From Patescibacteria group bacterium (GTDB lineage: Bacteria > Patescibacteriota > Patescibacteriia > SG8-24), in assembly GCA_041667185.1 (NCBI GenBank), contig JBAYFM010000002.1, forward strand, positions 23,432 to 87,431: a stretch of 64,000 nt of DNA, written 5' to 3'. Position 1 is the first letter of the stretch. The number at the start of each line of letters is the position of its first letter. The notes beneath the pieces are model-generated. The model was not told where the DNA came from. It saw only the letters and a list, made by a program, of their open reading frames with translations, and ran no database searches. Positions 18,600-37,465 of this stretch are shown here, piece by piece. Both the position numbers and the translations under genes were made by a program.

Positions 18600-19673
18600 A
18601 TGAACACCGCCAAGATACAACAGGTACTCGCCGCCGCCGGGATCAACAAGCCCTACCGCCTGAAGCAGGCCGTGCGCGCCGCCTACCGCGACCTCGTCCC
18701 CTCCTGGGAAGCCGCCGCGGAGCTGCCGCCGGAACTGCGCACCCTGCTCGACCGCGAGGCACCGATCATGTCGCTCACGCTGGAACGCGAGGCGGTCTCC
18801 GCCGACGGCCGCACCGTGAAAGCCGCGCTCAGGACAACGGACGGCAAGACGATCGAAACCGTGCTGATGGCGCACGAAGACGGCCGGCGCACGGTCTGCG
18901 TCTCGTCGCAGGCCGGCTGCGCCATGCGCTGCGCTTTCTGTGCGACCGGCGCGGGCGGCTTCAGCCGCAACCTGACCGCCGAGGAGATCAGCGATCAGGT
19001 CCTGCACTTCGCCCGCCGTCACGTCGTTCGCGAACGACGTGACGCTGCCTCCGCTGTAGACAAGAAGACCGTCACCAATGTGGTCGTGATGGGCATGGGC
19101 GAACCGATGAACAATTACGACGCCGTGCTGGCCGCCATCCGCGAACTCAACCGCGCTGACGGGCTCGGCATCGGCATCCGGCATTTCACTGTTTCCACCT
19201 GCGGCGTGGTCCCGGGCATCGAGCGCTTCGCGACGGAGCCGGAGCCGCTGAACCTCGCCGTCTCGCTCCACGCGCCGAACCAGGCCCTGCGCGAACGGAT
19301 CATGCCGGTCGCCGCCGCCTACCCGCTCGACCAGCTTCTGGCCGCCTGCCGCGCGTACGTCGAGCAGACCGGCCGCAAGATATTTTTCGAGTACCTGTTG
19401 CTCGATGGCGTGAACGACGGCGACGAACAGGCCGACGAGCTGGCGCGGATCATGGACCACGAGCTCTATCACGTGAACCTAATCAAATACCACGCGACCG
19501 GCGCTTTCCGCGCCTCGCCGCCGGAGCGCTGCCGCGCTTTCCAGCGCCGGCTCTGGGACCAGCACCGCGTGCCCGTGACTTTCCGCGTCGACTTCGGCGA
19601 AGACATCAGCGCCGCCTGCGGGCAATTGGCGGGACAGAAACCGAAAGACCAACCCCGAGGCGCAGCGGTGTGA
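18600..19673 (+). CDS. rlmN: 23S rRNA (adenine2503-C2)-methyltransferase RlmN (radical SAM; RlmN/Cfr family)
   Basis: Start at the internal Met MNTAKIQQVLAAAGINKPYRLKQAVRAAY. Radical-SAM Cys triad CAMRCAFC, plus MGMGEPMNNYD, LAVSLHAPNQALRERIMP and the C-terminal catalytic Cys region GEDISAACGQLA. Confidence 0.9.
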   Translation: MNTAKIQQVLAAAGINKPYRLKQAVRAAYRDLVPSWEAAAELPPELRTLLDREAPIMSLTLEREAVSADGRTVKAALRTTDGKTIETVLMAHEDGRRTVCVSSQAGCAMRCAFCATGAGGFSRNLTAEEISDQVLHFARRHVVRERRDAASAVDKKTVTNVVVMGMGEPMNNYDAVLAAIRELNRADGLGIGIRHFTVSTCGVVPGIERFATEPEPLNLAVSLHAPNQALRERIMPVAAAYPLDQLLAACRAYVEQTGRKIFFEYLLLDGVNDGDEQADELARIMDHELYHVNLIKYHATGAFRASPPERCRAFQRRLWDQHRVPVTFRVDFGEDISAACGQLAGQKPKDQPRGAAV

Positions 19674-25081: not shown

Positions 25082-26497
25082 ATGATCAAGGGCAAGAAAA
25101 GCAACAAGATCCTCCGCGCAGCAGAATTATTCGCTGGTGTCGGCGGTTTCCGCATCGGACTCGACCGAGCGTCGTCCAGGAACAAACGGTTCGAGACTGT
25201 CTGGGCCAACCAGTGGGAGCCGTCGTCAGGCAAGATACAGCACGCGGCCTGGGTTTACGAACAAGCGTTCTTCAGGTCGCGAGACAAGACGGAGGCCGAG
25301 ATGAAGAAAGGATTCTCTAACATCGACATCAACAAGGTCGTGAACAGCGATGTGAGCATCGCCGACGACATTCCCCCGTTCGACCTGTTGACCGGCGGCT
25401 TTCCCTGCCAAGACTATTCGGTGGCTCGTCCACTCAGCCAGGCCGCCGGACTCAAGGGCAAAAAAGGTGTCCTCTGGTGGAGCATCTATGAAATCCTGCG
25501 GCACAGGATAGACTCTTCGAAGGAAGGGCCTGTCCCCTACCTGTTCCTGGAGAATGTCGACCGTCTCCTGAAATCTCCGGCATCGAATCGGGGGCGCGAT
25601 TTCGCCATCATGCTTTCGACATTGTCCGAACTCGGCTATGTGGTCGAGTGGCGTGTGATAAACGCTGGAGAGTACGGCCTGCCCCAACGCCGTCGTCGCA
25701 CTTACATAGTCGGCTACCACAAGACGACCAGGTTGGCCCAGGAGGCCAGAGCGGCCAAAAATCATCTTGAGTGGGTGCTGCGGAGCGGTGTCGTCGCCAA
25801 AGCCTTCCCGGTGGAGAAGACGTTCGTGCGCGGCGGATTCTTTGGCCTGTCGACCAGACCAGAGGACATCACGAAGCGCTTCGTCCCGCTGGACCCGGAG
25901 GTAGACGTGGATTTCTCCGCTCCATTCCAGAATGCCGGTCTGATGATTGAGGGACGGGTCCATACCGCCAAGACCTCGCCCGTCTTCCATGGCAAACCCC
26001 AGACCTTGGGTGACATCCTGCAACCAGAGGATACGGTTCCGAAGCAATTCTATATCCCTGCGTCAGAGGTAAAGAAATGGGAGCAGCAGAAGGCGGCGCA
26101 TCGATTCGAGAGGACTCACAAGGACGGGCATAAGTATCTGTACGTCGAAGGCAGGCTCCCCTTCCCTGATCCGTTGGATAAGCCCTCGCGCACGATCATA
26201 ACCAGCGAAGGAGGCCGGTCATCATCGCGGTTCAAACATGTCATCGGCGTGCGACAGCGCCCTGGATATCCCAAGGGCCGCACTATCGACGGACAGACTT
26301 ACCTGTACAGACGACTTACGCCGATAGAATTAGAGAGACTCTGCATGTTCGAAGATGACCACACCAGACTGATGTTCAATCCTCTCAAACAGGAGATCTC
26401 TGAGGTGCCGGATACGAAAAGAGCGTTCTTCATGGGGAACGCCCTCGTGGTCGGAGTCATCACCAAGATAGGCCGGGAACTACTTAAACGAGTCTGA
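25082..26497 (+). CDS. DNA (cytosine-5)-methyltransferase (Dcm-type; motif I FxGxG, motif IV PCQ, motif VI ENV)
   Basis: 471 aa. ELFAGVGGFRIGL (motif I), GGFPCQDYSVA (PC motif), LFLENVDRLL (ENV), and the C-terminal target-recognition/motif IX-X region (...FMGNALVVGVITKIG). Confidence 0.9.
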   Translation: MIKGKKSNKILRAAELFAGVGGFRIGLDRASSRNKRFETVWANQWEPSSGKIQHAAWVYEQAFFRSRDKTEAEMKKGFSNIDINKVVNSDVSIADDIPPFDLLTGGFPCQDYSVARPLSQAAGLKGKKGVLWWSIYEILRHRIDSSKEGPVPYLFLENVDRLLKSPASNRGRDFAIMLSTLSELGYVVEWRVINAGEYGLPQRRRRTYIVGYHKTTRLAQEARAAKNHLEWVLRSGVVAKAFPVEKTFVRGGFFGLSTRPEDITKRFVPLDPEVDVDFSAPFQNAGLMIEGRVHTAKTSPVFHGKPQTLGDILQPEDTVPKQFYIPASEVKKWEQQKAAHRFERTHKDGHKYLYVEGRLPFPDPLDKPSRTIITSEGGRSSSRFKHVIGVRQRPGYPKGRTIDGQTYLYRRLTPIELERLCMFEDDHTRLMFNPLKQEISEVPDTKRAFFMGNALVVGVITKIGRELLKRV

Positions 26498-26905
26498 ACT
26501 GTCGCGCAGCAGATCCAAGACCCTGAGCACCGCCCGCTCGGGGTCTTTTTTGATGTCATGCTCCCAAATTCTCAGCACCCGCCATCCGTGGCGTCGCAGA
26601 CCGGCCGTGTGACGCCGATCCCGTGCCCGATTCCGCTCGATCTTATCTCTCCAGAACTTCAGCCGAATCTTATGTTTCCATGCCGGGTAACGATACCCGT
26701 GCCAAAAATCTCCGTCGATGAATACTGCTATTTTATTTTTCGGCAAGGCGATGTCCGGAACCCCGAAAGCGGTGTGATAATGCCGCCGGAACCTGATACC
26801 GACTGCTGATAGTGCGCGAAACATGACCAGTTCCAACGAGGTATTTTTACCTCGAATCTTTGACATGATGATGCTCCGGACCTCTTTTGAAAACCTGTCT
26901 GGCAT
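26480..26905 (-). CDS. vsr: Very-short-patch repair endonuclease Vsr
   Basis: 141 aa. MPDRFSKEVRSIIMSKIRGKNTSLELVMFRALSAVGIRFRRHY...IAVFIDGDFWHGY...WRDKIERNRARDRRHTAGLRRHGWRVLRIWEHD is highly characteristic of Vsr. It overlaps the MTase 3' end convergently. Confidence 0.9.
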   Translation of the reverse strand: MPDRFSKEVRSIIMSKIRGKNTSLELVMFRALSAVGIRFRRHYHTAFGVPDIALPKNKIAVFIDGDFWHGYRYPAWKHKIRLKFWRDKIERNRARDRRHTAGLRRHGWRVLRIWEHDIKKDPERAVLRVLDLLRDSSDSFK

Positions 26906-30852: not shown

Positions 30853-30927
30853 TGGCTCCGAGGCTGGGGCTCGAACCCAGAACAAATGGATTAACAGTCC
30901 ATTGCTCTACCATTGAGCTACCTCGGA
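30853..30927 (-). tRNA. tRNA-Asn (anticodon GTT), CCA encoded
   Basis: Manual fold of TCCGAGGTAGCTCAATGGTAGAGCAATGGACTGTTAATCCATTTGTTCTGGGTTCGAGCCCCAGCCTCGGAGCCA. 7-bp acceptor stem, D-arm GCTC/GAGC, anticodon stem ATGGA/TCCAT with loop CTGTTAA, T-arm CTGGG-TTCGAGC-CCCAG. Confidence 0.9.
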
Positions 30928-31176
30928 ATAATGATTTCCAATGAACGCTTTAACAAATTCGCGGCCGCATCCTGACTTCAACCATTTTTCCCGTTTTCTC
31001 GCTGTTGGCCGATCTGGTGTTTCCTCGCTATAGACCATGACATATGGCCTATGGTTCTTAGTCCACCTGACGTATCCGGAATTATGTTCCTTGAGACGCC
31101 GTGCGAGATCAGAAGTTAAACCAATATATAACGTCCGATCAACCAGACTCCGTAAGACATAAACCTTGTATTCCAT
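30907..31176 (-). CDS. Small GIY-YIG nuclease-domain protein (YhbQ/UPF0213-like). Its last seven codons are the 5' end of tRNA-Asn
   Basis: 89 aa. KVYVLRSLVDRTLYIGLTSDLARRLKEHNSG fits the GIY-YIG core (Y-x-L...YIG, Arg, Glu). The C-terminal ...SEVAQW* is encoded by TCCGAGGTAGCTCAATGGTAG, which is tRNA-Asn positions 1-21. Confidence 0.7.
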   Translation of the reverse strand: MEYKVYVLRSLVDRTLYIGLTSDLARRLKEHNSGYVRWTKNHRPYVMVYSEETPDRPTARKREKWLKSGCGREFVKAFIGNHYSEVAQW

Positions 31177-31179
31177 AAG

Positions 31180-31232
31180 CAGTCCATTGCTCCCTGCCTA
31201 CCGGCAGGCAGGTACCATTGAGCTACCTCGGA
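31180..31232 (-). pseudogene. Duplicated 5' half of tRNA-Asn (acceptor 5' strand, D-arm, anticodon-stem 5' strand) with a 20-nt hairpin inserted in the D-loop
   Basis: Minus-strand TCCGAGGTAGCTCAATGGTA[CCTGCCTGCCGGTAGGCAGG]GAGCAATGGACTG matches tRNA-Asn positions 1-20 and 21-33 around the bracketed insertion. It lies immediately 5' of the GIY-YIG start. Confidence 0.6.
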
Positions 31233-31320
31233 ATATAAACGTATTCCTTGACGGGAATAAGGCTGGCCAAAGAACTGACCGAAATAGTTTAGCACAAGAA
31301 ATAAATTTGGCAACACCGGG

Positions 31321-31600
31321 AGCTGAAAGATCCATTAAAAAGAGAGTGCGGGAGCCACGTCGTTCGCGAACGACGTGGCGGAGTGTGGGAGAGGCTGGAT
31401 TCCCGCTGGAGTGAAACCCCGCACTTGCTGCGGGGCGGGAATGACAATAAAAAGAGGGTGGATTATAAAACCACGAGCTGATCCCCCTTCGCTAAAGCTT
31501 CGGGGGACAAGTCGGAGGATTCGCGAATTATAAAACCCCGAGCTGGCGCTCGGGGTTACATATTGGAGGCGAAGAAGCCGGCCTCATGATCCGATCTCGA
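31321..31600. repeat. Composite intergenic repeat element, copy R1 (GGAG-rich tract, 24-nt perfect palindrome, conserved hairpins)
   Basis: Contains GAGTGCGGGAG, the palindrome CCACGTCGTTCGCGAACGACGTGG (31355-31378), GGGCGGGAATGACA, GGATTATAAAACC plus a hairpin, and ATTATAAAACCCCGAGCTGGCGCTCGGGGTTA. The modules are shared with R2 (32222-32440) and R3 (37125-37440). Confidence 0.6.
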
Positions 31601-31602
31601 TC

Positions 31603-32127
31603 TCAGATGATCCCCGCGGTCATCGCCACGGTGAAATTGCACAACGCGTGAACGAAAACGCAGGAAAAATACGCTGCGAACTGATTCTGGCTGTTCCGGA
31701 GATAAAGACCGCCCAGGATCATGCCGCCGACACCCTGGATAAGCATGCCCTGCGGCACGGCTTGAGCCAAACCGAAGAGGACGCCGCAGACAATGATCAC
31801 GACCACACCTGCCGCTTCCGGCCGCTTGTTCCGGACGATCTCCAGAGGCAGCATCCGGAAAAGCGCCTCCTCGACGATCGGCGCGCAGAACAGGACGAAG
31901 AAGAGGACCAGTGATGGGCGTCCGACTAGGAAATCGTCGCCGCAGAATCTGACGAGCAGCCAGAAGCTCGCCGAAAAATACGGCAAGGAGTACGGCAACA
32001 GCGACTGGCCGGCCACGGCTCCCAAAAGACAGAACACCACCATGACCCAGATCCAGTTGGCGCCGTAAGCGGCCAAAAGATCAAGCGCCATCCGGCGCCA
32101 AGACAACACCTGTCTGCTTCCGTCCAT
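31603..32127 (-). CDS. CPBP-family (CAAX protease / Abi) intramembrane metalloprotease, paralog 1
   Basis: Start at MDGSRQVL... with RBS GGAGGtctgtgATG. Motif 1 VEEALFRMLPLE, motif 2 FGLAQA, motif 3 VHALCNFTVA. Confidence 0.75.
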   Translation of the reverse strand: MDGSRQVLSWRRMALDLLAAYGANWIWVMVVFCLLGAVAGQSLLPYSLPYFSASFWLLVRFCGDDFLVGRPSLVLFFVLFCAPIVEEALFRMLPLEIVRNKRPEAAGVVVIIVCGVLFGLAQAVPQGMLIQGVGGMILGGLYLRNSQNQFAAYFSCVFVHALCNFTVAMTAGII

Positions 32128-32221
32128 CACAGACCTCCATTCGGCGCTAAGCCGACGATCTGAACCGTTTGAATGAGCTGAACGAAAATTAACAAGCAAG
32201 ACGCGGGAAGTCAACTGGGCG

Positions 32222-32440
32222 AGATAGATGAGAGAAACGAAGTCATGGAGTGCGGGAGAGACGGAGTCACGTCGTTCGCGAACGACGTGGCGGAGAGTGC
32301 AGGAGTGCGGGAGTGCGGGAGTAAAGAGGATGGATTATAAAACCCCTGGCTCAATCCCCCTCCGCTGAAGCTGCGGGGGATTCACGAGTCATAAAACCCC
32401 GAGCTGACGCTCGGGGTAAAATTAAGGTGGCGAAAAAAAA
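32222..32440. repeat. Composite intergenic repeat element, copy R2
   Basis: GGAGTGCGGGAGAGACGGAG, the palindrome TCACGTCGTTCGCGAACGACGTGG (32267-32290), GAGTGCAGGAGTGCGGGAGTGCGGGAG, GGATTATAAAACC, and CATAAAACCCCGAGCTGACGCTCGGGGTAAAA. It lies in the 5' region of CPBP paralog 1. Confidence 0.6.
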
Positions 32441-32490
32441 TCGGGCCTGCCAGCTGAGTGGCAAAACCCGATCAAGATGCTGCTGGACGA

Positions 32491-33003
32491 TCATCCGCCC
32501 ATCGCGACGATGGTGAAGTTGTACAGCGCATGAACGATCACGCAAGAAATATAGGCGGCTTTCTGCGACGTGTTGTTCTTCACGTAGAGCCAGCCGAGCA
32601 TGAGGCCGACGAAGCCCTGGATGAAGACGTTCAACGGCGAGCCGTGCGCCCAGCCGAAGATGATGCCGCAGATGACGATGACGACCGCGCGCACCCGCTC
32701 AGGATGCTGGCCGATGACGAAGGTCAGCGGCAGCATCCGGAAGATAGCTTCCTCGATCACGGGAGCGAAGACGAGCGTCATGAAGAGGCTCAGACCCACG
32801 CTGGCCTTGATCGCGGTAGCCATATCCGGGAAGTGGTCGATCCAGGCGCCGAAAACGGACAGTACCGGCAGTTCGGAACTGATGACGGCTTTCGGCAGCA
32901 AAGCCTGAAGGATATTCGAGACAATGACCACCCAAACCCAGGACAGCCCGTAGGCAGTCAGGATGTTGCGCACATGGCGCAACCCAAAAGTCCTATTTTC
33001 CAT
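32491..33003 (-). CDS. CPBP-family (CAAX protease / Abi) intramembrane metalloprotease, paralog 2
   Basis: Start at MENRTFGLRH... with RBS GGGAGGctgtcATG. Motif 1 IEEAIFRMLPLT, motif 2 FGWAHG, motif 3 VHALYNFTIVA. Confidence 0.75.
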   Translation of the reverse strand: MENRTFGLRHVRNILTAYGLSWVWVVIVSNILQALLPKAVISSELPVLSVFGAWIDHFPDMATAIKASVGLSLFMTLVFAPVIEEAIFRMLPLTFVIGQHPERVRAVVIVICGIIFGWAHGSPLNVFIQGFVGLMLGWLYVKNNTSQKAAYISCVIVHALYNFTIVAMGG

Positions 33004-33134
33004 GACAGCCTCCCTTGTTTCTTGACGGATATCAAAGACCGCTATTGTTACCATAGCGGTCTATGAAATTGGCGTCAAATACGCTCCGGGCCGCCGGCGG
33101 CCAAGCCAGAATAGAGGCTCAACCCAGCGACGGA

Positions 33135-34433
33135 TCAATAATCGCGGAGTTTGGAGATGCCCTGGTGATGCTGGATCTTTTCGAGCGCCTTAGCCTCGAT
33201 CTGGCGGATGCGCTCGCGGGTGACGTCGAACTCCTGGCCGACCTCTTCGAGCGTGTGGCTGACCCCGTCCGTGAGTCCGAACCGCATCTCGAGGATCTTC
33301 TGTTCGCGCGGGCTCAGGTCCTTGATGACGTTCCTCACGTAATCGCGCAGGAGCTGGAGCGCGGCGGCGCGGTCCGGAGCGATGTTCTTCACGTCCTCCA
33401 CGAAATCCACGAGCGTCGAATCCTCGTCATCCTCGCCGACCGAGGTCTCCAAGGAAACCGTGTCCTGCGAGATCTGGATGATATGGCGGACCTTCTCGAC
33501 GTCCTCGCCCATCTCGGCGGCAATCTCCTCCGGCAGCGGTTCGCGGCCGAGGTCTTGGATGAGCTGGCGCTCGATCTGTTGGAAGCGGTTGATGGTCTCG
33601 ACCATGTGAACCGGGATGCGGATGGTGCGCGACTGATCGGCTAAGGCGCGGGTGATGGCCTGGCGGATCCACCAGGTGGCGTAGGTCGAGAACTTGAAGC
33701 CTTTGCGGTATTCGAATTTCTTCACGGCGCGGAAGAGGCCGATGTTCCCCTCCTGGATGAGGTCGAGGAGTGACAGCGACTTACCGACGAATTTCTTGGC
33801 GATGGAGACGACGAGGCGCAGGTTGGCTTCGATCAGGCGCTTCTCGGCCTCGCGGTCGTTGCGCTCCTTGCGTTTGGCGAGCGCGATCTCCTCTTCGCTC
33901 GTGAGCAGCGGGATCTTGCCGATCTCGCGCAGATACATCTGGATCGAGTCCGTGGAGATGTCCGTGAGATCGAACCGCTTCTTTTCCTTGGTGGAACGGA
34001 TCTGATTGAGCAGATTTTCCTGCTCTTCGCGGCGGCCCAGGAGACCCTCTTTCATCTCCACGAGCTTCATGCCGATGGCGTCGACCCGGTCGAGGAAGTC
34101 GATATAAAGCGGCAGATACTCCTCCAGGTCGGCGAACGTATGCAAAAGTTCGGTCTCAGTGATGAAACCGCGCGAGCGGCCCTTGGCCAAGAGCGCGTCG
34201 ACGACTTCCGGCGGCGGCGGCAGGGCTTTGGCGCGCTTGATCGGCACCATCGGCGCCGGTTTCTTGCCGGAACCTTTGGCGGGCTTGGCGCCTTTTTTCG
34301 GAGCGATCTTCTTGGCCGGCCGTTTGGCCGGTCTCTTTACGATCTTCTTCAGCGGTTTCTTGGCGATCTTCTTGGGCGCGGCCTTCGCGGCCGGCTTCTT
34401 CTTCGCTTTCTTGGTCGCAGTCTTCTTGGACAT
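33135..34433 (-). CDS. rpoD: Primary sigma-70 factor RpoD with a lysine/alanine/proline-rich histone-H1-like N-terminal tail
   Basis: Start at [22 protein letters not shown]... . Region 1.2 ([10 protein letters not shown]), region 2 ([16 protein letters not shown]...[35 protein letters not shown]), region 3 and region 4 ([15 protein letters not shown]...[24 protein letters not shown]). Confidence 0.9.
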
Positions 34434-34501
34434 AAATGGTGCGGCGAGCGCTGGCCTGACAAAAATGCCGGCCTTCCGTCTCAAAGGACGGAATGTCGCG
34501 T

Positions 34502-36304
34502 CTACAACATGAGTTCGCTGAGCTGCCGCTGGATATCCTGGATACTCGTGGCATCCCCGGCCTTTTCGGCGCGGGACATCGCGGCAGTAAGTTCGCGTTG
34601 GCGGCGGCCGATGTGGAGTCGTTTGATTTCTCCCATCAAAGCGGTGAGCGTGTCCCTGCGCTGGTCTTCCGGAAAATCGCCGAGCTCCTTTTCGGACAGG
34701 AGCTTCATGATAGCGATAGTTTCCGCGGTTTTTGGATCACCGTTGCCAGCGAACCGGGATAACGAGGCCGAATTTTGTGGACCGCCTGTCCGTTGCTCAT
34801 TATAGAAGACGACGTATTCCGTGTAAAGCTGCCGGAGGGGCGCGGCCAGGAATTCCGGCTTGACCGCGGCGAACACGGTTTCCGCCAGATCAGGCCAATT
34901 TAAGGCTGCGCCGAAGATGGTCCGGGAGACCAGATCTTCGCGATCCTGGGGCTGCGATGGCAAGGCGACCGGCGCTGCTGGCTGAGCTCCGGCCGGCGAC
35001 GGCTTGGCCAGCTTCTCGAACTCCCGGCGCAGGTCGCCTTCCGGGGTTTCCACGAGTTCCGCCAGCTCCCGCAGCCAGTGCGCGCGCTCGGCGGCCGACG
35101 GCAATTTGGCGATCTCGGCCAGGATCTCCGCGGAGGTCTTGCGCTTGGCGTAGGGATCTTCGGGTTTCAGTCTCTGCCGCGCGAGATCCAGATACCACTG
35201 CATGAACGGCGCCGCGTCGGCGATGGCCTGCTGCCACATCTTCACATCCTTGCGGATGCAGTCGTCGGGATCCTTGCCGGCCCCGGGCGGCAGACGCAGC
35301 ACGCGGACCTCGAAACCGTGCGAGACCGCGAGATCGATGCTCCGCCGCGCGGCCTGCTCGCCGGCCGCGTCCATGTCGAAAGACAGCACCAGTTTGTCGG
35401 TCTTGTGTTTGAAGAGAGCCAACTGCTCCTCGGTGAAAGCCGTGCCGGAACTCGCCACGACATTCTTCACGCCGGCCTGGTGCGAAGCGATCGCGTCCAT
35501 GTTGCCCTCGACGACGACCGCGAAGCCTTGCTTGCGGATCTCGGACTTCGCTTTGTCGAGCAGGAAGAGGATCCGGCTCTTGCGGTAGACGGCGGTCTCC
35601 TGGGTGTTCACGTACTTGCCTTCTTTGGGCGGGTCCTTGCCGTCGGGACCGGGCATGACGCGGCCGGTGAAACCGACATGATTGCCCTGGGCGTCAGTGA
35701 TCGAGAACATCAGGCGGCCACGGAACCGGTCGAAATAACCGCCGCCGCGCTCTTTCTTGGAGACGAGCCCGGCCCGGAAGATCTCGTCGTCAGTGAATTC
35801 TTTCTTGCGCAGGAAATTCAGCAGGGCGTCCCAGGAGTCCGGCGAGTAGCCAATCAAGAAATCCTCGAGCGTCTCTTCTTTCAGTTCCCGCTTGGCGCAG
35901 TAAGCGCGCGCCCGCTCGGCCTGCGGCGAACGCATCAGCACCTCGTGGTAATAACGCGCCGCCCAGCGGTTGGCGTCATGCAGGCGCTGGCGGCCCTTGT
36001 CTTCGGACAGATCGACGTGCTTCAGGACCACGCCGGCTTTCTTGGCCAGATGCCGCAGCGCTTCCACGAAATCAACCCCGTCGATCTTCATCACGAAAGT
36101 GAAGATGTCCCCGTCCTCGCCGCAGCCGAAACAGTGCCAGCGCTGGCGGTCCGGCGTGACGTAGAACGACGGGTCCTGCTCGTGATGGAACGGACACGGC
36201 GCGCGAAAATTGACCCCGGCTTTGCGGAGCTGGATGTATTCCGAGATCAACTGGACGATGTCGATCTTGGATTTGATCTCTTCAATAACGCTGTTGTCGG
36301 ACAT
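34502..36304 (-). CDS. dnaG: DNA primase DnaG
   Basis: 600 aa. Zinc-binding domain [13 protein letters not shown]...WHCFGCG, TOPRIM region ([28 protein letters not shown]...[12 protein letters not shown]), and a C-terminal helical domain. Located upstream of rpoD on the same strand. Confidence 0.9.
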
Positions 36305-37121
36305 AATTCGGCGTCAGCAGGTCAGCGATCCATTCCAGGGTCAATTTCGAGGTCCGGACGTTCTTCGTCAGATCGCCGCCGCAGATGATCATCTTCTTCG
36401 AATGATGCAGATACCAATTGGCCTCCGGTTCGACCTGCATGATCTGCTGATAGACCGGCGTCAGATCGATGCGCGACCCGGCGAAAGCACGGATGTTGTG
36501 GTAATTGCGCTCCTTGTTGACGTAGACGATCAGATCGAAGCCGCGCTGAAAGGCGAAAGCCTCGATGTCGCGGGCCGAGGTGCTCACGGCCGCCGCCGGA
36601 CCGTAGATCGACTCGAATTCGATGTGAGTCTTCCAGTCGTCCTCCAGGACCGCTTCGTTCTTCTGGGCCGCGAACAACGCATCGCAGACGGTCAGTCCCA
36701 GCGACATCAGGGCTTCGTCGCTGCCGGTGAGCTGTCGATGGAACGCCAGGATGGCGTGCAGGCTGAAACTGTGATGCGGAATCTTGTGGAGCTGTCCAGT
36801 GTCGTCCAGCTTGACCCAGTCGATGAGTTTGTCGAGGCCGCGCGTTTCCAGCGCGTCTGATTTGACACCGCTCTGCCGCAGGTGTTTCAGGATCAGCGAG
36901 GCCGCGCATTCGCCGACGTCGCCCTTGTGCTCGTCGAACTCGCCGCTGCCGACGCCGACGCTGATCCTGTCGGCTGCCGCGCCATCGCTGCTGTCGCGTT
37001 CGTTCGCGGCGACATACTCGATCTTGGCGTCGCGATATTCCTCAGGCAAAAAACGCTTCAGCAGCCAGATGGCAGCCACCTCGTCGAGATGCGGACGGAC
37101 GTGCGTGACGATGGTCTTCAT
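36282..37121 (-). CDS. Putative MYG1/UPF0160-like metal-dependent hydrolase (weak assignment)
   Basis: 279 aa. The N-terminus VTHVRPHLDEVAAIWLL resembles the MYG1 T-H-x-G-x-F-H-x-D-E-x-x-A start. It overlaps the dnaG start by 23 nt. Confidence 0.35.
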   Translation of the reverse strand: MKTIVTHVRPHLDEVAAIWLLKRFLPEEYRDAKIEYVAANERDSSDGAAADRISVGVGSGEFDEHKGDVGECAASLILKHLRQSGVKSDALETRGLDKLIDWVKLDDTGQLHKIPHHSFSLHAILAFHRQLTGSDEALMSLGLTVCDALFAAQKNEAVLEDDWKTHIEFESIYGPAAAVSTSARDIEAFAFQRGFDLIVYVNKERNYHNIRAFAGSRIDLTPVYQQIMQVEPEANWYLHHSKKMIICGGDLTKNVRTSKLTLEWIADLLTPNYVRQQRY

Positions 37122-37124
37122 AGT

Positions 37125-37440
37125 GCGGGAGTGAGGGGGGGGGTTGAGAGTGCTGGAGTGCTGGAGTGCTGGAGAGACGGAGTGGAATGTCGGAGTGTCG
37201 AAGAGGCGGAGTAATGAGAGGTGTATTCTTCGCTTCTCCCCTGCTTCTGAGTTGGCCGTATTTTACCTTAAACCGGCGCAAACATCAAAATAAACAGGCT
37301 AAAAGTTCTGGAGTGCGGGAGTCAGGGAGAGACGGAGTCAGGGAGTGCTGAAGTACTGGAGTTCTGAAGGGCGGGAATGACATGTGTTAAATGCACGCGT
37401 CAGCTAAAGCTGATGGTTTATGGGGGAATAATAAAAGGAC
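37125..37440. repeat. Composite intergenic repeat element, copy R3 (octamer-periodic GGAGTGCT repeats)
   Basis: AGTGCGGGAGTGAG-G10-TTGAGAGTGCTGGAGTGCTGGAGTGCTGGAGAGACGGAGTGGAATGTCGGAG..., then CTGGAGTGCGGGAGTCAGGGAGAGACGGAGTCAGGGAGTGCTG and GAAGGGCGGGAATGACATG. The last matches GGGCGGGAATGACAAT in R1. Confidence 0.55.
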
Positions 37441-37465
37441 GCGATTTCGCGCCCTTAGGGTGTTC

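What the first reader, a model, noticed from the sequence alone, without database searches (positions are those of the whole stretch)
31321..37440. Three-copy family of composite non-coding elements with GGAG-rich octamer repeats and 24-nt perfect palindromes (candidate ncRNA or regulatory repeat)
Intergenic blocks at 31321-31600, 32222-32440 and 37125-37440 share ordered modules. (i) Purine tracts built from GGAGTGC(T/G) units (e.g. GTGCTGGA x3, GGAGTGCGGGAG). (ii) A perfect palindrome (C/T)CACGTCGTTCGCGAACGACGTGG, in two copies. (iii) GGGCGGGAATGACA. (iv) GGATTATAAAACC followed by a C5/G5 hairpin. (v) ATAAAACCCCGAGCTG-CGCTCGGGGT hairpins. There is no coding capacity, no CRISPR-like regular spacing, and no IS-like ORF. 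Multiple GGA/GGAG motifs separated by short spacers and interspersed with hairpins recall CsrB/RsmZ-type protein-sponge RNAs. Alternatively they could be SD/anti-SD sequestering leaders for the downstream minus-strand genes (CPBP protease, MYG1-like), or a lineage-specific MITE.
Basis: seen in the sequence. Interest (0 to 1): 0.75.

Follow-up and report, generated by a model that had tools for sequence, protein, structure and literature searches.

The report
Mobile palindrome within GGAG octamer repeats
The three "composite elements" are not one RNA gene but a patchwork of transcription terminators, a lineage-specific 8-base tandem repeat, and a 24-base perfect palindrome that behaves like a tiny jumping DNA element spread through the Patescibacteria (CPR), often sitting exactly at the 3' end of tRNA genes.

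Summary
They are not a three-copy ncRNA family. They break down into three independent layers.

1. Modules iv and v are Rho-independent terminators of the minus-strand genes.
2. The GGAG-NNNN octamer arrays are lineage-specific. They are absent from the orthologous intergenic regions of relatives at 57-77% protein identity. They are abundant (53 arrays in about 110 kb) in one sister genome, where adjacent arrays are often convergent, foldback-like pairs.
3. The palindrome is a 24-bp element (N-CACGTCGTTCGCGAACGACGTG-N') inserted with a 4-5 bp target duplication.
 - The exact 22-mer occurs in at least 120 stretches from about 85 assemblies, nearly all Patescibacteria, and in none of 2.9 million viral contigs.
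 - 20 of 124 copies sit right after the tRNA discriminator base and rebuild the CCA.
 - One filled/empty pair shows +29 nt with a CGGAG duplication.
 - A third window copy lies in frame inside rlmN.
 - Variant copies stay perfectly palindromic.

The octamer arrays supply the preferred CTCCG/CGGAG target, which explains the "composite" look. There is no Rfam hit, no CsrA in the DNA sampled, and no predicted plus-strand promoter. The sponge-RNA reading is not supported. I found no description of the palindrome element in the searched literature.

The parts
31354..31379 (.). PAL copy A. A 26-nt perfect palindrome with the 22-nt core at 31356-31377. It sits inside octamer array A as GGAG-C-PAL-G-CGGAG.
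   Evidence: Removing 29 nt restores the 8-nt register of the array, read directly from the sequence.
32267..32290 (.). PAL copy B. A 24-nt element (T-PAL-G) flanked by the direct repeat CGGAG.
   Evidence: The junction is the same as in the filled/empty pair in L066.
19017..19044 (.). PAL copy inside the rlmN coding sequence. It is part of a 30-nt (10-aa) in-frame insertion.
   Evidence: The insertion is absent from 11 of 11 RlmN relatives, including one at about 77% identity.
31341..31399 (+). Octamer array A. It starts AGAGAGTGCG GGAG, is interrupted by PAL, then continues GGAGTGTG GGAGAGGC.
32247..32333 (+). Octamer arrays B. GGAGTGCG GGAGAGAC GGAGT, then PAL, then GAGAGTGCA GGAGTGCG GGAGTGCG GGAGTAAA.
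37122..37221 (+). Octamer array C-proximal, including a G9 tract at 37135-37143. It lies between the conserved -10 box and the ATG (37121) of the MYG1-like gene. On the mRNA strand it is a CUCC-repeat 5' leader.
   Evidence: Relatives have only about 27 nt between the -10 box and the ATG.
37306..37382 (+). Octamer array C-distal (9 units). It ends in GGGCGGGAATGACA and lies between the NT5C terminator and the operon promoter.
31433..31446 (+). The 14-mer GGGCGGGAATGACA. The second copy is at 37369-37382, at the edge of an array.
   Evidence: Not found in the sister-genome loci.
31534..31557 (-). Rho-independent terminator after CPBP-A (stem AACCCCGAGCG/CAGCTCGGGGTT followed by TTTTAT).
31480..31508 (-). 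Second hairpin (C5/G5) after CPBP-A. It is followed by GGTTTTATAATCC.
32396..32417 (-). Terminator hairpin after CPBP-B. It is the paralogous copy of 31534-31557.
32353..32382 (-). Second hairpin (C5/G5) after CPBP-B.
32446..32465 (-). First hairpin plus T run directly after the CPBP-B stop codon.
37435..37456 (-). Terminator of the NT5C gene.
   Evidence: A terminator sits at the same place in relatives.
37260..37288 (-). Promoter of the MYG1-like-dnaG-rpoD operon (TTGATG-17-TAAAAT).
   Evidence: The sequence is conserved in L124 and L125.
31286..31313 (-). Promoter upstream of the tRNA-Asn region (TTGCCA-16-TGcTAAACT).
   Evidence: Conserved in L125/L126 and L128.
32186..32214 (-). Probable promoter of CPBP-A (TTGACT-17-TAATTT).
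   Evidence: Read from the sequence. A TTGACTT box is also present in L125. It was not called by the scan.

Best explanation
The blocks are intergenic accumulation zones built from three unrelated layers.

1. Terminators. These are Rho-independent terminators of the minus-strand genes (NT5C, CPBP-B, CPBP-A). They do what terminators do.

2. Octamer arrays. These are tandem GGAG-NNNN units drawn from a small vocabulary (GGAGAGAC, GGAGTGCT/G/A, GGAGTCAG). They form a lineage-specific satellite or foldback-type repeat inserted between terminators and promoters, and once into a 5' leader. I infer that they expand by slippage or unequal exchange. They need no function of their own. Their side effects are longer intergenic spacers and one CU-rich leader without a Shine-Dalgarno sequence.

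3. PAL. This is a 24-bp perfect palindrome, N-CACGTCGTTCG|CGAACGACGTG-N', and it is a non-autonomous mobile element. I infer that an enzyme acting in trans recognises the dyad-symmetric site and integrates it at staggered cuts 4-5 bp apart in YNN(N)R targets, producing a 4-5 bp target duplication (net +28 or +29 nt). CTCCG/CGGAG is a favoured target. The octamer arrays and tRNA 3' ends both offer this sequence, which is why PAL sits inside the arrays.

Shown: insertion, target duplication, target preference, wide distribution in the CPR, and symmetric variants.
Inferred: the enzyme, and whether the element moves as duplex DNA or as a hairpin.
For: Terminators:
- Stem-loops followed by T runs lie on the gene strand directly after stop codons.
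- Relatives have a terminator plus the same promoters at the same places, in only 118-179 nt.

Arrays:
- They occur only in these blocks within the window.
- They are absent at the orthologous sites in L124 (77% aa identity), L125 (60%) and L128 (57%).
- There are 53 arrays of at least 4 units in 13 loci (about 110 kb) from one metagenome sample (Ga0172379), with runs of up to 13 identical units.
- Adjacent arrays are convergent 13 times and divergent once.

PAL:
- The exact 22-mer occurs in at least 120 stretches and the scan was truncated. I calculate fewer than 0.1 expected in 596 Gb. It has 0 hits in viral contigs.
- Flanks: positions 2-5 of the 6-nt register are direct repeats in 78-88 of 122 copies. 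A score of 5-6 matches out of 6 occurs 47 times against 3.7 expected.
- The outer pair N/N' is complementary in 107 of 122 copies. Chance is about 0.33, calculated from the table.
- At tRNAs, all 20 copies are in one register: 13 are N70-73-C|PAL|G-N70-73-CCA and 6 have a 5-bp duplication.
- A filled/empty pair inside L066 shows +29 nt with a CGGAG duplication.
- The rlmN insertion is absent in 11 of 11 relatives.
- PAL is depleted from long ORFs, 28% against 74% for random positions.
- Copies with two mismatches are perfectly palindromic in 8 of 9 cases.
- In the sister genome PAL sits at CTCCG inside arrays at nine or more places.
Against: - No autonomous element with PAL-like ends was found in 1.39 Mb of held sequence, and no gene family is enriched next to PAL.
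- 24 bp is far shorter than any MITE I know of, and it is unclear how a transposase could synapse two abutting 12-bp ends.
- No presence/absence polymorphism was seen between near-identical strains.
- The arrays often begin with a defined AGAGTGCN unit (16 of 56) and pair convergently. Pure slippage does not predict either feature.
- The origin of the A/B similarity is not resolved. It could be gene conversion or copying of a roughly 200-nt segment.
- About 22 of the 120 PAL loci carry the record title 'uncultured Gammaproteobacteria'. I suspect this label is wrong but did not verify it.
Confidence: 0.75

Rival explanations
1. The blocks encode a CsrB/RsmZ-like sponge RNA. Its repeated GGA/GGAG motifs would titrate an RNA-binding protein or 30S subunits.
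For: There are many GGAG motifs on the + strand. They are predicted to be mostly unpaired between hairpins.
Against: - No Rfam match.
- No + strand promoter-like site.
- The hairpins have their T runs on the minus strand, so they terminate minus-strand transcription.
- The arrays are absent at the same loci in syntenic relatives.
- In the sister genome the arrays occur in both orientations, dozens of times.
- No CsrA homologue in the DNA sampled.
Confidence: 0.03
2. The arrays are cis-regulatory leaders. CUCC repeats on the mRNA strand would sequester SD sequences or recruit ribosomes or S1, tuning expression of the downstream minus-strand genes.
For: Array C-proximal lies between the conserved -10 box and the ATG of the MYG1-like-dnaG-rpoD operon, and that gene has no SD. 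In the sister genome, CTCC units directly abut the start codon of what I read as a murI-type gene, judged only from the VFDSGIGG motif at its N-terminus (L157).
Against: - Relatives express the same operon from a leader of about 20-27 nt without arrays.
- Most arrays lie downstream of terminators and upstream of promoters, so they are probably little transcribed.
- Orientation relative to the flanking genes shows no rule (the gene calls there are crude).
Confidence: 0.1
3. Each block is one copy of a single composite mobile element (terminator, octamers and palindrome moving together).
For: Blocks A and B are 80-97% identical over about 190-240 nt, although the adjacent CPBP paralogues are old (68% nt identity, and both paralogues are present in L125). 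The PAL-in-array combination recurs in the sister genome.
Against: - No TIR or TSD at the block boundaries.
- Block C lacks both PAL and the hairpin modules.
- PAL occurs without octamers in 120 of 120 CPR loci.
- Arrays occur without PAL in most cases.
- The A/B hairpin motif TTATAAAACC is absent from the sister genome.
Confidence: 0.08
4. PAL is a binding site (operator, or parS/dif-like) for a conserved dimeric CPR protein. It would be kept by selection and would not be mobile.
For: It has perfect dyad symmetry, is conserved exactly across very different genomes (GC 30-64%), and its variants are symmetric.
Against: - Flanking direct repeats and a filled/empty pair.
- Positions are not conserved between relatives.
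- One copy lies inside a coding sequence as an insertion.
- Decayed copies exist.
- The binding protein could simply be the mobilising enzyme.
Confidence: 0.07
5. The octamer arrays are guide-RNA arrays of a TIGR-Tas or CRISPR-like system.
For: TIGR systems are common in the CPR and use short 8-12 nt repeats and spacers (PMC12045711).
Against: - The period is 8 nt (4 constant plus 4 from a small vocabulary), not 36-nt dual-repeat units.
- No Nop-domain or Cas gene lies nearby.
- The arrays are scattered over dozens of intergenic sites.
Confidence: 0.01
6. The octamer arrays are themselves mobile foldback-type elements (terminal inverted repeats made of short tandem units), not passive slippage satellites.
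For: - Adjacent arrays are convergent 13 times and divergent once.
- 16 of 56 arrays start with the same AGAGTGCN unit.
- The same roughly 60-nt centre is found at two loci in L175.
- The arrays are present in two genomes that are only about 72% identical in nucleotide sequence, yet absent at the orthologous sites of closer relatives.
Against: No target duplication was seen at 13 foldback pairs. Many arrays are solo, including all four in the window. Long runs of identical units indicate slippage.
Confidence: 0.3

Closest known systems
MITEs (bacterial miniature inverted-repeat transposable elements, e.g. Correia/NEMIS elements of Neisseria)
   Same: Non-coding, multi-copy and dispersed. Two inverted arms flanked by a short target-site duplication. 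Mobilised in trans. Found mostly between genes.
   Different: PAL is only 24 bp: two abutting 12-bp arms with no internal sequence. It is a perfect palindrome. It is conserved to the base across many CPR classes. No parent IS with matching ends was found. From memory, MITEs are about 50-500 bp.
REP/BIME elements and their RAYT (IS200/IS605-type) transposases
   Same: Short (20-40 nt) extragenic palindromes that form hairpins, are highly repeated, and often lie after genes.
   Different: From memory, REPs are imperfect palindromes with a conserved GTAG-type 5' tetranucleotide and are not flanked by target duplications. PAL has 4-5 bp duplications and no GTAG. The presence of a RAYT gene was not tested.
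Rickettsia palindromic elements (RPE)
   Same: Palindromic repeats that also land in frame inside protein-coding genes and are tolerated there, as with the PAL copy in rlmN.
   Different: From memory, RPEs are about 100-150 bp and restricted to Rickettsia. PAL is 24 bp and has no stop codon in any of the six frames (read from the sequence).
Cyanobacterial STRR (short tandemly repeated repetitive) heptamer arrays
   Same: Genome-wide, lineage-specific tandem arrays of a very short unit in intergenic regions, with no known function. The term is attested in PMC2670836 among others.
   Different: The unit here is 8 nt, with a constant GGAG half and a variable half. The arrays often form convergent inverted pairs. 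The host is a Patescibacteria lineage.
Foldback (FB) transposons of eukaryotes
   Same: Long inverted arms composed of short tandem repeats, as in the convergent GGAG/CTCC array pairs.
   Different: No target duplication and no transposase were seen. The host is bacterial. The comparison rests on memory only.
Casposons and other integrating elements that target tRNA 3' ends
   Same: Strong preference for the 3' end of tRNA genes, with duplication of the target (PMC5137440, listed).
   Different: Those are elements of several kb encoding their own integrase, with duplications of about 14-15 bp. PAL is 24 bp, non-coding, and rebuilds the CCA itself.

Membership tests
CsrB/RsmZ-type sponge RNA | Match to a curated family model, or conserved structure with GGA motifs in hairpin loops | tested here: not met
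   No Rfam hit at the gathering threshold or at E<=5. The GGAG motifs lie in unpaired stretches between terminator and PAL hairpins.
CsrB/RsmZ-type sponge RNA | Own promoter and terminator on the strand that carries the GGA motifs | tested here: not met
   All four promoter-like sites, and the terminators in the blocks, are on the minus strand.
CsrB/RsmZ-type sponge RNA | A CsrA/RsmA partner protein in the genome | tested here: inconclusive
   tblastn with E. coli and B. subtilis CsrA found nothing in 251 kb of this lineage or in the 1.39 Mb of loci held. The complete genome was not available.
MITE | Terminal inverted repeats | tested here: met
   PAL consists of two abutting 11-12 nt inverted arms.
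MITE | Target-site duplication of fixed or near-fixed length | tested here: met
   The duplications are 4-5 bp. This rests on flank statistics, on 19 of 20 tRNA cases, and on the filled/empty pair in L066.
MITE | Many dispersed non-coding copies per genome | tested here: met
   3 copies in this 64-kb window. 3-5 or more loci per assembly for at least 9 assemblies, despite a truncated scan.
MITE | A related autonomous IS with the same ends | tested here: not met
   Isolated arms are only decayed PAL copies. No gene family is enriched nearby. Only 1.39 Mb was searched.
MITE | Size about 50-500 bp with internal sequence | tested here: not met
   The element is 24 bp with no internal sequence.
REP/RAYT | No target duplication, and a conserved GTAG-like tetranucleotide at the 5' end | tested here: not met
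   PAL has flanking duplications and starts N-CACG.
REP/RAYT | A RAYT (Y1 HUH transposase) gene in the genome | not tested
   No genome-wide protein search was done.
TIGR-Tas array | Repeat units of about 36 nt with alternating edge and loop repeats and two 8-12 nt spacers | tested here: not met
   The period is 8 nt. The definition is taken from PMC12045711.
TIGR-Tas array | An adjacent gene for a Nop-domain Tas protein | tested here: not met
   The neighbours are NT5C, ChrB_C/MYG1-like, DnaG, RpoD, CPBP and GIY-YIG.
Rho-independent terminator (modules iv and v) | G+C-rich stem-loop followed by a T run, on the gene strand, just after a stop codon | tested here: met
   Sites 31557-31534, 32465-32446 and 37456-37435.
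STRR-like tandem repeat | Genome-wide intergenic tandem arrays of a unit of 10 nt or less, restricted to one lineage | tested here: met
   The arrays are absent in the 120 other CPR loci and at the orthologous sites of relatives. The unit length (8 rather than 7 nt) and the host differ from the cyanobacterial family, so this is an analogy and not membership.
parS/operator-type protein binding site | Conserved position relative to orthologous genes, and no insertion signature | tested here: not met
   PAL is absent at the orthologous sites. The insertion signature is present.

The most novel reading that the evidence does not exclude
PAL may be the smallest self-contained mobile DNA described so far, at 24 bp. 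It may propagate by a mechanism that rebuilds both arms from one. Candidates are a single-strand hairpin or snap-back intermediate, or symmetric templated addition to both 3' ends of a staggered break, joined through the self-complementary TCGCGA tip. The enzyme would be unidentified and shared across the Patescibacteria.

The clue is that the two degenerate positions vary, yet stay complementary between the arms:
- the outer N/N' pair is complementary in 107 of 122 copies;
- at position 8/15 (T:A, C:G or G:C) I count about 12 symmetric copies against 2 asymmetric ones.
Independent evolution of two transposase-binding ends does not predict this.

The N73|CCA junction of tRNA genes would serve as a safe harbour, because the element supplies a new CCA.
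Probability: 0.2. Interest if true: 0.85.

Novelty: new variant of a known kind. Interest (0 to 1): 0.6.

Why it matters
CPR/Patescibacteria genomes are small and gene-dense, and their mobile DNA is poorly charted.

The palindrome:
- A 24-bp palindrome that is identical in roughly 85 species-level assemblies of many CPR classes would be a new, very compact type of selfish DNA.
- It inserts with target duplication, lands precisely after the tRNA discriminator base while restoring CCA, and can sit in frame inside an rRNA-methyltransferase gene.
- It could serve as a practical marker for CPR contigs.
- It points to an unidentified enzyme that recognises the palindrome.
- Its symmetric variants give a testable handle on whether it moves as a hairpin.

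The octamer arrays:
- They show that even these streamlined genomes tolerate rapidly evolving satellite DNA.
- One array has lengthened the leader of the dnaG-rpoD operon about five-fold.

For annotation, the result warns against reading such mosaics as ncRNA genes.

Tried and rejected
- Rfam at the gathering threshold and at E<=5: only tRNA. A SorY 'hit' scored 27 bits against a 111-bit threshold and reflects terminator resemblance.
- CsrA by tblastn: nothing.
- TIGR/CRISPR-like arrays: rejected on period and neighbouring genes.
- HrcA CIRCE half-site resemblance (GAGTGCT) and LexA/Cheo-box resemblance of the PAL centre: I considered both from memory. I dropped them because there is no inverted partner or the orientation is wrong.
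- PAL as a sequencing or assembly artefact: rejected. The copies come from dozens of independent studies, are restricted to one superphylum, have target duplications, keep one register at tRNAs, and have 0 hits in 2.9 million viral contigs.
- A long IS bounded by PAL arms: not found. A gene family co-located with PAL: none; the largest cluster is EF-G in 6 loci.
- A 6-bp TSD model for PAL: rejected. The outer positions of the 6-nt register match only 41% and 30% of the time. At tRNAs, N' is G even where base 69 is not G.
- Strain-level variation in array length: none among L121, L122 and L123.
- A rule linking array orientation to flanking genes: none seen. My ORF-based gene calls are unreliable there because the arrays create spurious ORFs.
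- Target duplications around foldback array pairs: none seen.
- In one search my CPBP-A translation was out of frame, so the protein identities involving it are invalid. I use only the blastn value (68% over 260 nt) and the L125/L128 comparisons.
- The literature searches found no description of either repeat. The PAL core 16-mer and the octamer dimers, searched as exact strings, returned no papers. The keyword searches returned papers, but none that describes these repeats.

Full report
CONTEXT

The window is 100% identical to an ENA metagenome contig (L121, 109.6 kb) and 99.96% identical to a JGI contig (L122). One source names the MYG1-like protein as coming from a 'Patescibacteria group bacterium'.

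All genes around the finding are on the minus strand. Their coordinates come from the gene calls on L121 and the Pfam hits:

| Gene | Window coordinates |
|---|---|
| NT5C | 38008-37466 |
| ChrB_C/MYG1-like protein | 37121-36282 |
| DnaG | 36304-34502 |
| RpoD | 34433-33135 |
| CPBP-B | 33003-32491 |
| CPBP-A | 32127-31603 |
| Promoter, then tRNA-Asn 5' fragment, GIY-YIG ORF and tRNA-Asn | tRNA-Asn at 30927-30853 |

THE OBSERVATION

The motifs are real and non-random.
- GGAGTGCNGGAG occurs 11 times against 1.65 expected, always on the + strand and only in the three blocks.
- The 22-nt palindrome has 0 expected occurrences.
- The hairpin module occurs 6 times against 0.37 expected.
- An 8-nt periodicity scan finds GGAG arrays nowhere else in the 64 kb.

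Three corrections are needed.
- There is a third exact palindrome copy inside rlmN, at 19017-19044.
- Only blocks A and B are collinear, at 80-97% identity over about 190-240 nt. Block C consists of two separate arrays.
- The hairpins of modules iv and v have their T runs on the minus strand, right after the stop codons. They are terminators.

LAYER 1: TERMINATORS AND PROMOTERS

Relatives with the same gene order are L124 (77% identity of the MYG1-like protein), L125/L126 (60%) and L128/L129 (57%). Their intergenic regions are compact, 118-179 nt, and consist of a terminator and a promoter.

The promoter TTGATG-17-TAAAAT upstream of the MYG1-like gene is conserved in sequence, and so is the TTGCCA/TGcTAAACT promoter upstream of tRNA-Asn. 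None of these relatives has octamers or the palindrome at these sites.

In the window genome the extra DNA therefore sits in two kinds of place:
- between terminator and promoter (A, B, C-distal);
- between the -10 box and the ATG (C-proximal). This stretches the gap between the -10 box and the ATG from about 27 nt in L124 to about 138 nt, most of it CUCC repeats plus a C9 run.

LAYER 2: OCTAMER ARRAYS

The signature GGAGTGCNGGAG...AGACGGAGT has no hit in the 120 other CPR loci. A metagenome scan returned 49 stretches. Real arrays are found almost only in 13 loci from a single sample, Ga0172379 (GC 0.59-0.62). That genome is only about 72% identical in nucleotide sequence to the window in the one shared gene.

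Those 13 loci (about 110 kb) hold 53 arrays of 4-13 units. The units come from a small vocabulary: GGAGAGAC 53 times, GGAGTGCT 43, GGAGTCAG 33, GGAGTGCG 18. One array has 13 identical units, which indicates slippage. Two features argue against pure slippage:
- 16 of 56 arrays begin with the same AGAGTGCN unit;
- adjacent arrays are convergent 13 times and divergent once, so they look like foldbacks.

No target duplication was seen at the foldback pairs. Short arrays also occur in two other metagenome samples (L156, L165).

The paralogues CPBP-A and CPBP-B are old. L125 has both, at 55% aa identity, and the window coding sequences are 68% identical over 260 nt. The much higher A/B block identity therefore reflects a later copying or conversion event.

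Two of the four SNPs that separate the window from L122 over 10 kb fall in block B, one of them inside the palindrome.

There is no Rfam match, no + strand promoter, no Tas or Cas neighbour, and no CsrA in the DNA sampled.

LAYER 3: THE PALINDROME (PAL)

Distribution.
- By my count of accession prefixes these come from about 85 assemblies.
- The record titles name Uhr-, Morani-, Peregrini-, Peri-, Doudna-, Woese-, Wirth-, Buchanan- and Kerfeldbacteria, Saccharibacteria, Minisyncoccota and 'Patescibacteria group'.
- About 22 titles read 'uncultured Gammaproteobacteria' (TPA assemblies). I doubt that label. One of these loci (L109) carries the only nucleotide match to the window, its rpoD, and an EF-G comparison was not decisive.
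- Two actinobacterial hits lack the flank pattern.
- I calculate fewer than 0.1 chance occurrences in 596 Gb.
- PAL and its main variant have 0 hits in 2.9 million viral contigs.

Insertion signature. The flanks read x-Y-N-N-R-N | PAL | N'-Y-N-N-R-y.
- The four inner positions are direct repeats in 64-72% of 122 copies.
- N and N' are complementary in 88% of copies, against about 33% by chance.

tRNA 3' ends. 20 of 124 copies lie at tRNA 3' ends, in 8 tRNA types, and all are in exactly one register.
- In 13 the structure is N70-73-C | PAL | G-N70-73-CCA.
- In 6 the duplication is 5 bp (CTCCG type).
- The element CCACG...CGTGG is therefore inserted right after the discriminator base and supplies a new CCA.
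- N' is G even where base 69 is not. The outer pair therefore belongs to the element: it is 24 bp, with a 4-5 bp target duplication.

Direct evidence of insertion.
- A filled/empty pair inside L066: the empty copy reads ...AACGAGCGGAG|CGATT... and the filled copy reads ...CGGAG-T-PAL-G-CGGAG-CGATT..., which is +29 nt.
- Block B in the window has the identical junction. Removing 29 nt from block A restores the 8-nt register of its array.
- The rlmN copy is part of a 10-aa insertion missing from 11 of 11 relatives, including one at 77% identity.

Coding regions. PAL has no stop codon in any frame (read from the sequence). It is nevertheless depleted from long ORFs: 28% of copies lie in a stop-free stretch of at least 200 aa, against 74% of random positions.

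Variants. Copies with two mismatches are perfectly palindromic in 8 of 9 cases, carrying T8>C with A15>G, or T8>G with A15>C. These are found in several lineages. Copies with a single mismatch look like decay. All three forms fold as 10-bp DNA hairpins of -10.8 to -11.9 kcal/mol.

Link to the arrays. In the sister genome PAL or its C:G variant sits inside the arrays at nine or more places, always at CTCCG. This is the same pentamer as at ...CTCCG-CCA tRNA ends. The arrays are therefore a rich supply of a preferred target, and that explains the composite appearance.

MECHANISM

Shown: PAL is an insertion with a short target duplication. It has a YNN(N)R / CTCCG target preference and a hotspot at the tRNA N73|CCA junction. 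It is multi-copy and widespread in the CPR.

Inferred: a dimeric enzyme acting in trans makes staggered cuts 4-5 bp apart. No parent IS was found and no linked gene was found.

The symmetric variation at two degenerate positions suggests that the two arms are copied from one another, through a hairpin or snap-back route. That is the more novel reading, and I give it about 0.2.

For the arrays I favour a selfish or neutral satellite that grows by slippage. A foldback-type mobile origin is a serious alternative (0.3).

COMPARISON AND NOVELTY

PAL behaves like a MITE (inverted arms, target duplication, non-autonomous). It fails the size and parent-IS criteria, and it differs from REP elements because it has target duplications. 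The arrays resemble cyanobacterial STRR and foldback elements by analogy only.

No paper in the searchable library contains the PAL core 16-mer or the octamer dimers as exact strings. Keyword searches found no description of such elements in the CPR.

VERDICT

| Item | Verdict |
|---|---|
| Observation | Partly confirmed |
| Sponge-RNA interpretation | Not supported |
| What is there | A mosaic of ordinary terminators and two apparently undescribed repeat classes |
| Most notable part | The CPR-wide 24-bp palindrome |
| Novelty | New variant of a known kind |
| Interest | 0.6 |

Noticed in passing
window 30853-31235 (minus strand): tRNA-Asn (30853-30927) is preceded by a GIY-YIG ORF (30907-31176, Pfam PF01541) and by a second copy of the tRNA 5' half (about 31180-31235; the 23-nt exact repeat is at 30908-30930 and 31213-31235). 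It looks like a small GIY-YIG element that landed in the tRNA gene and carries a replacement 5' half. In the relatives L125/L126 the tRNA is intact and directly follows the promoter.
   Followed up: partly
L128:13180-13810: In this relative, tRNA-Asn is split in the anticodon loop by roughly 600 nt containing an ORF with Cys/His motifs that I read as HNH-like, without running a domain search. This is an intron-like insertion. It is a different invader at the same tRNA gene as in the window.
   Followed up: no
window 31193-31212; L030:6906; L031:2712: A second short palindrome family, CCTGCCTGCCGGCAGGCAGG. The copy in L030 (a Peregrinibacteria MAG) is perfect. The window copy has one wobble pair and is inserted in the D-arm region of the tRNA-Asn 5' fragment. 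CPR genomes may carry several families of mini-palindrome insertions.
   Followed up: partly
L022:4201-4300; L072:6000-6092: Next to PAL copies at tRNA 3' ends there are tandem repeats of a roughly 29-nt unit: one PAL arm, the tRNA 3' end including CCA, and about 9 nt of trailer. The units are joined at the centre of the palindrome, which suggests breakage at the hairpin tip followed by repair.
   Followed up: no
window 37135-37143: A G9 run (C9 on the mRNA strand) lies 14-22 nt upstream of the ATG of the MYG1-like-dnaG-rpoD operon. Relatives lack it. A homopolymer of this length could vary by slippage. It is identical in the three assemblies compared.
   Followed up: partly
window 37121 and 34433 (minus-strand start codons): The MYG1-like gene and rpoD have no recognisable Shine-Dalgarno sequence, whereas both CPBP genes have GGAGG. 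The MYG1-like orthologues in L124 and L125 also lack one.
   Followed up: no
L122 and L123 (contig ends at window 37251 and 37341): Two independent assemblies of the same organism break inside block C. The repeats probably disrupt short-read assembly. Such arrays, and PAL copies near them, may therefore be under-represented in MAGs.
   Followed up: no
window 33029-33069: A 20-bp inverted repeat (AAGACCGCTAT...ATAGCGGTCTT) lies between rpoD and CPBP-B. Its sequence is conserved in L125 and L128. It is probably the conserved rpoD terminator, in contrast to the unconserved blocks.
   Followed up: partly
window about 25082-26905: A DNA cytosine methyltransferase gene (PF00145) lies beside a Vsr-type very-short-patch repair endonuclease gene (PF03852), according to the Pfam marks on the identical contig L122.
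   Followed up: no
L001-L120 record titles: About 22 PAL-bearing assemblies are titled 'uncultured Gammaproteobacteria' (TPA_asm), yet they show the same PAL target duplications and tRNA insertions as the CPR MAGs. One of them (L109) carries the rpoD closest to the window's. The taxonomic labels are probably wrong.
   Followed up: partly
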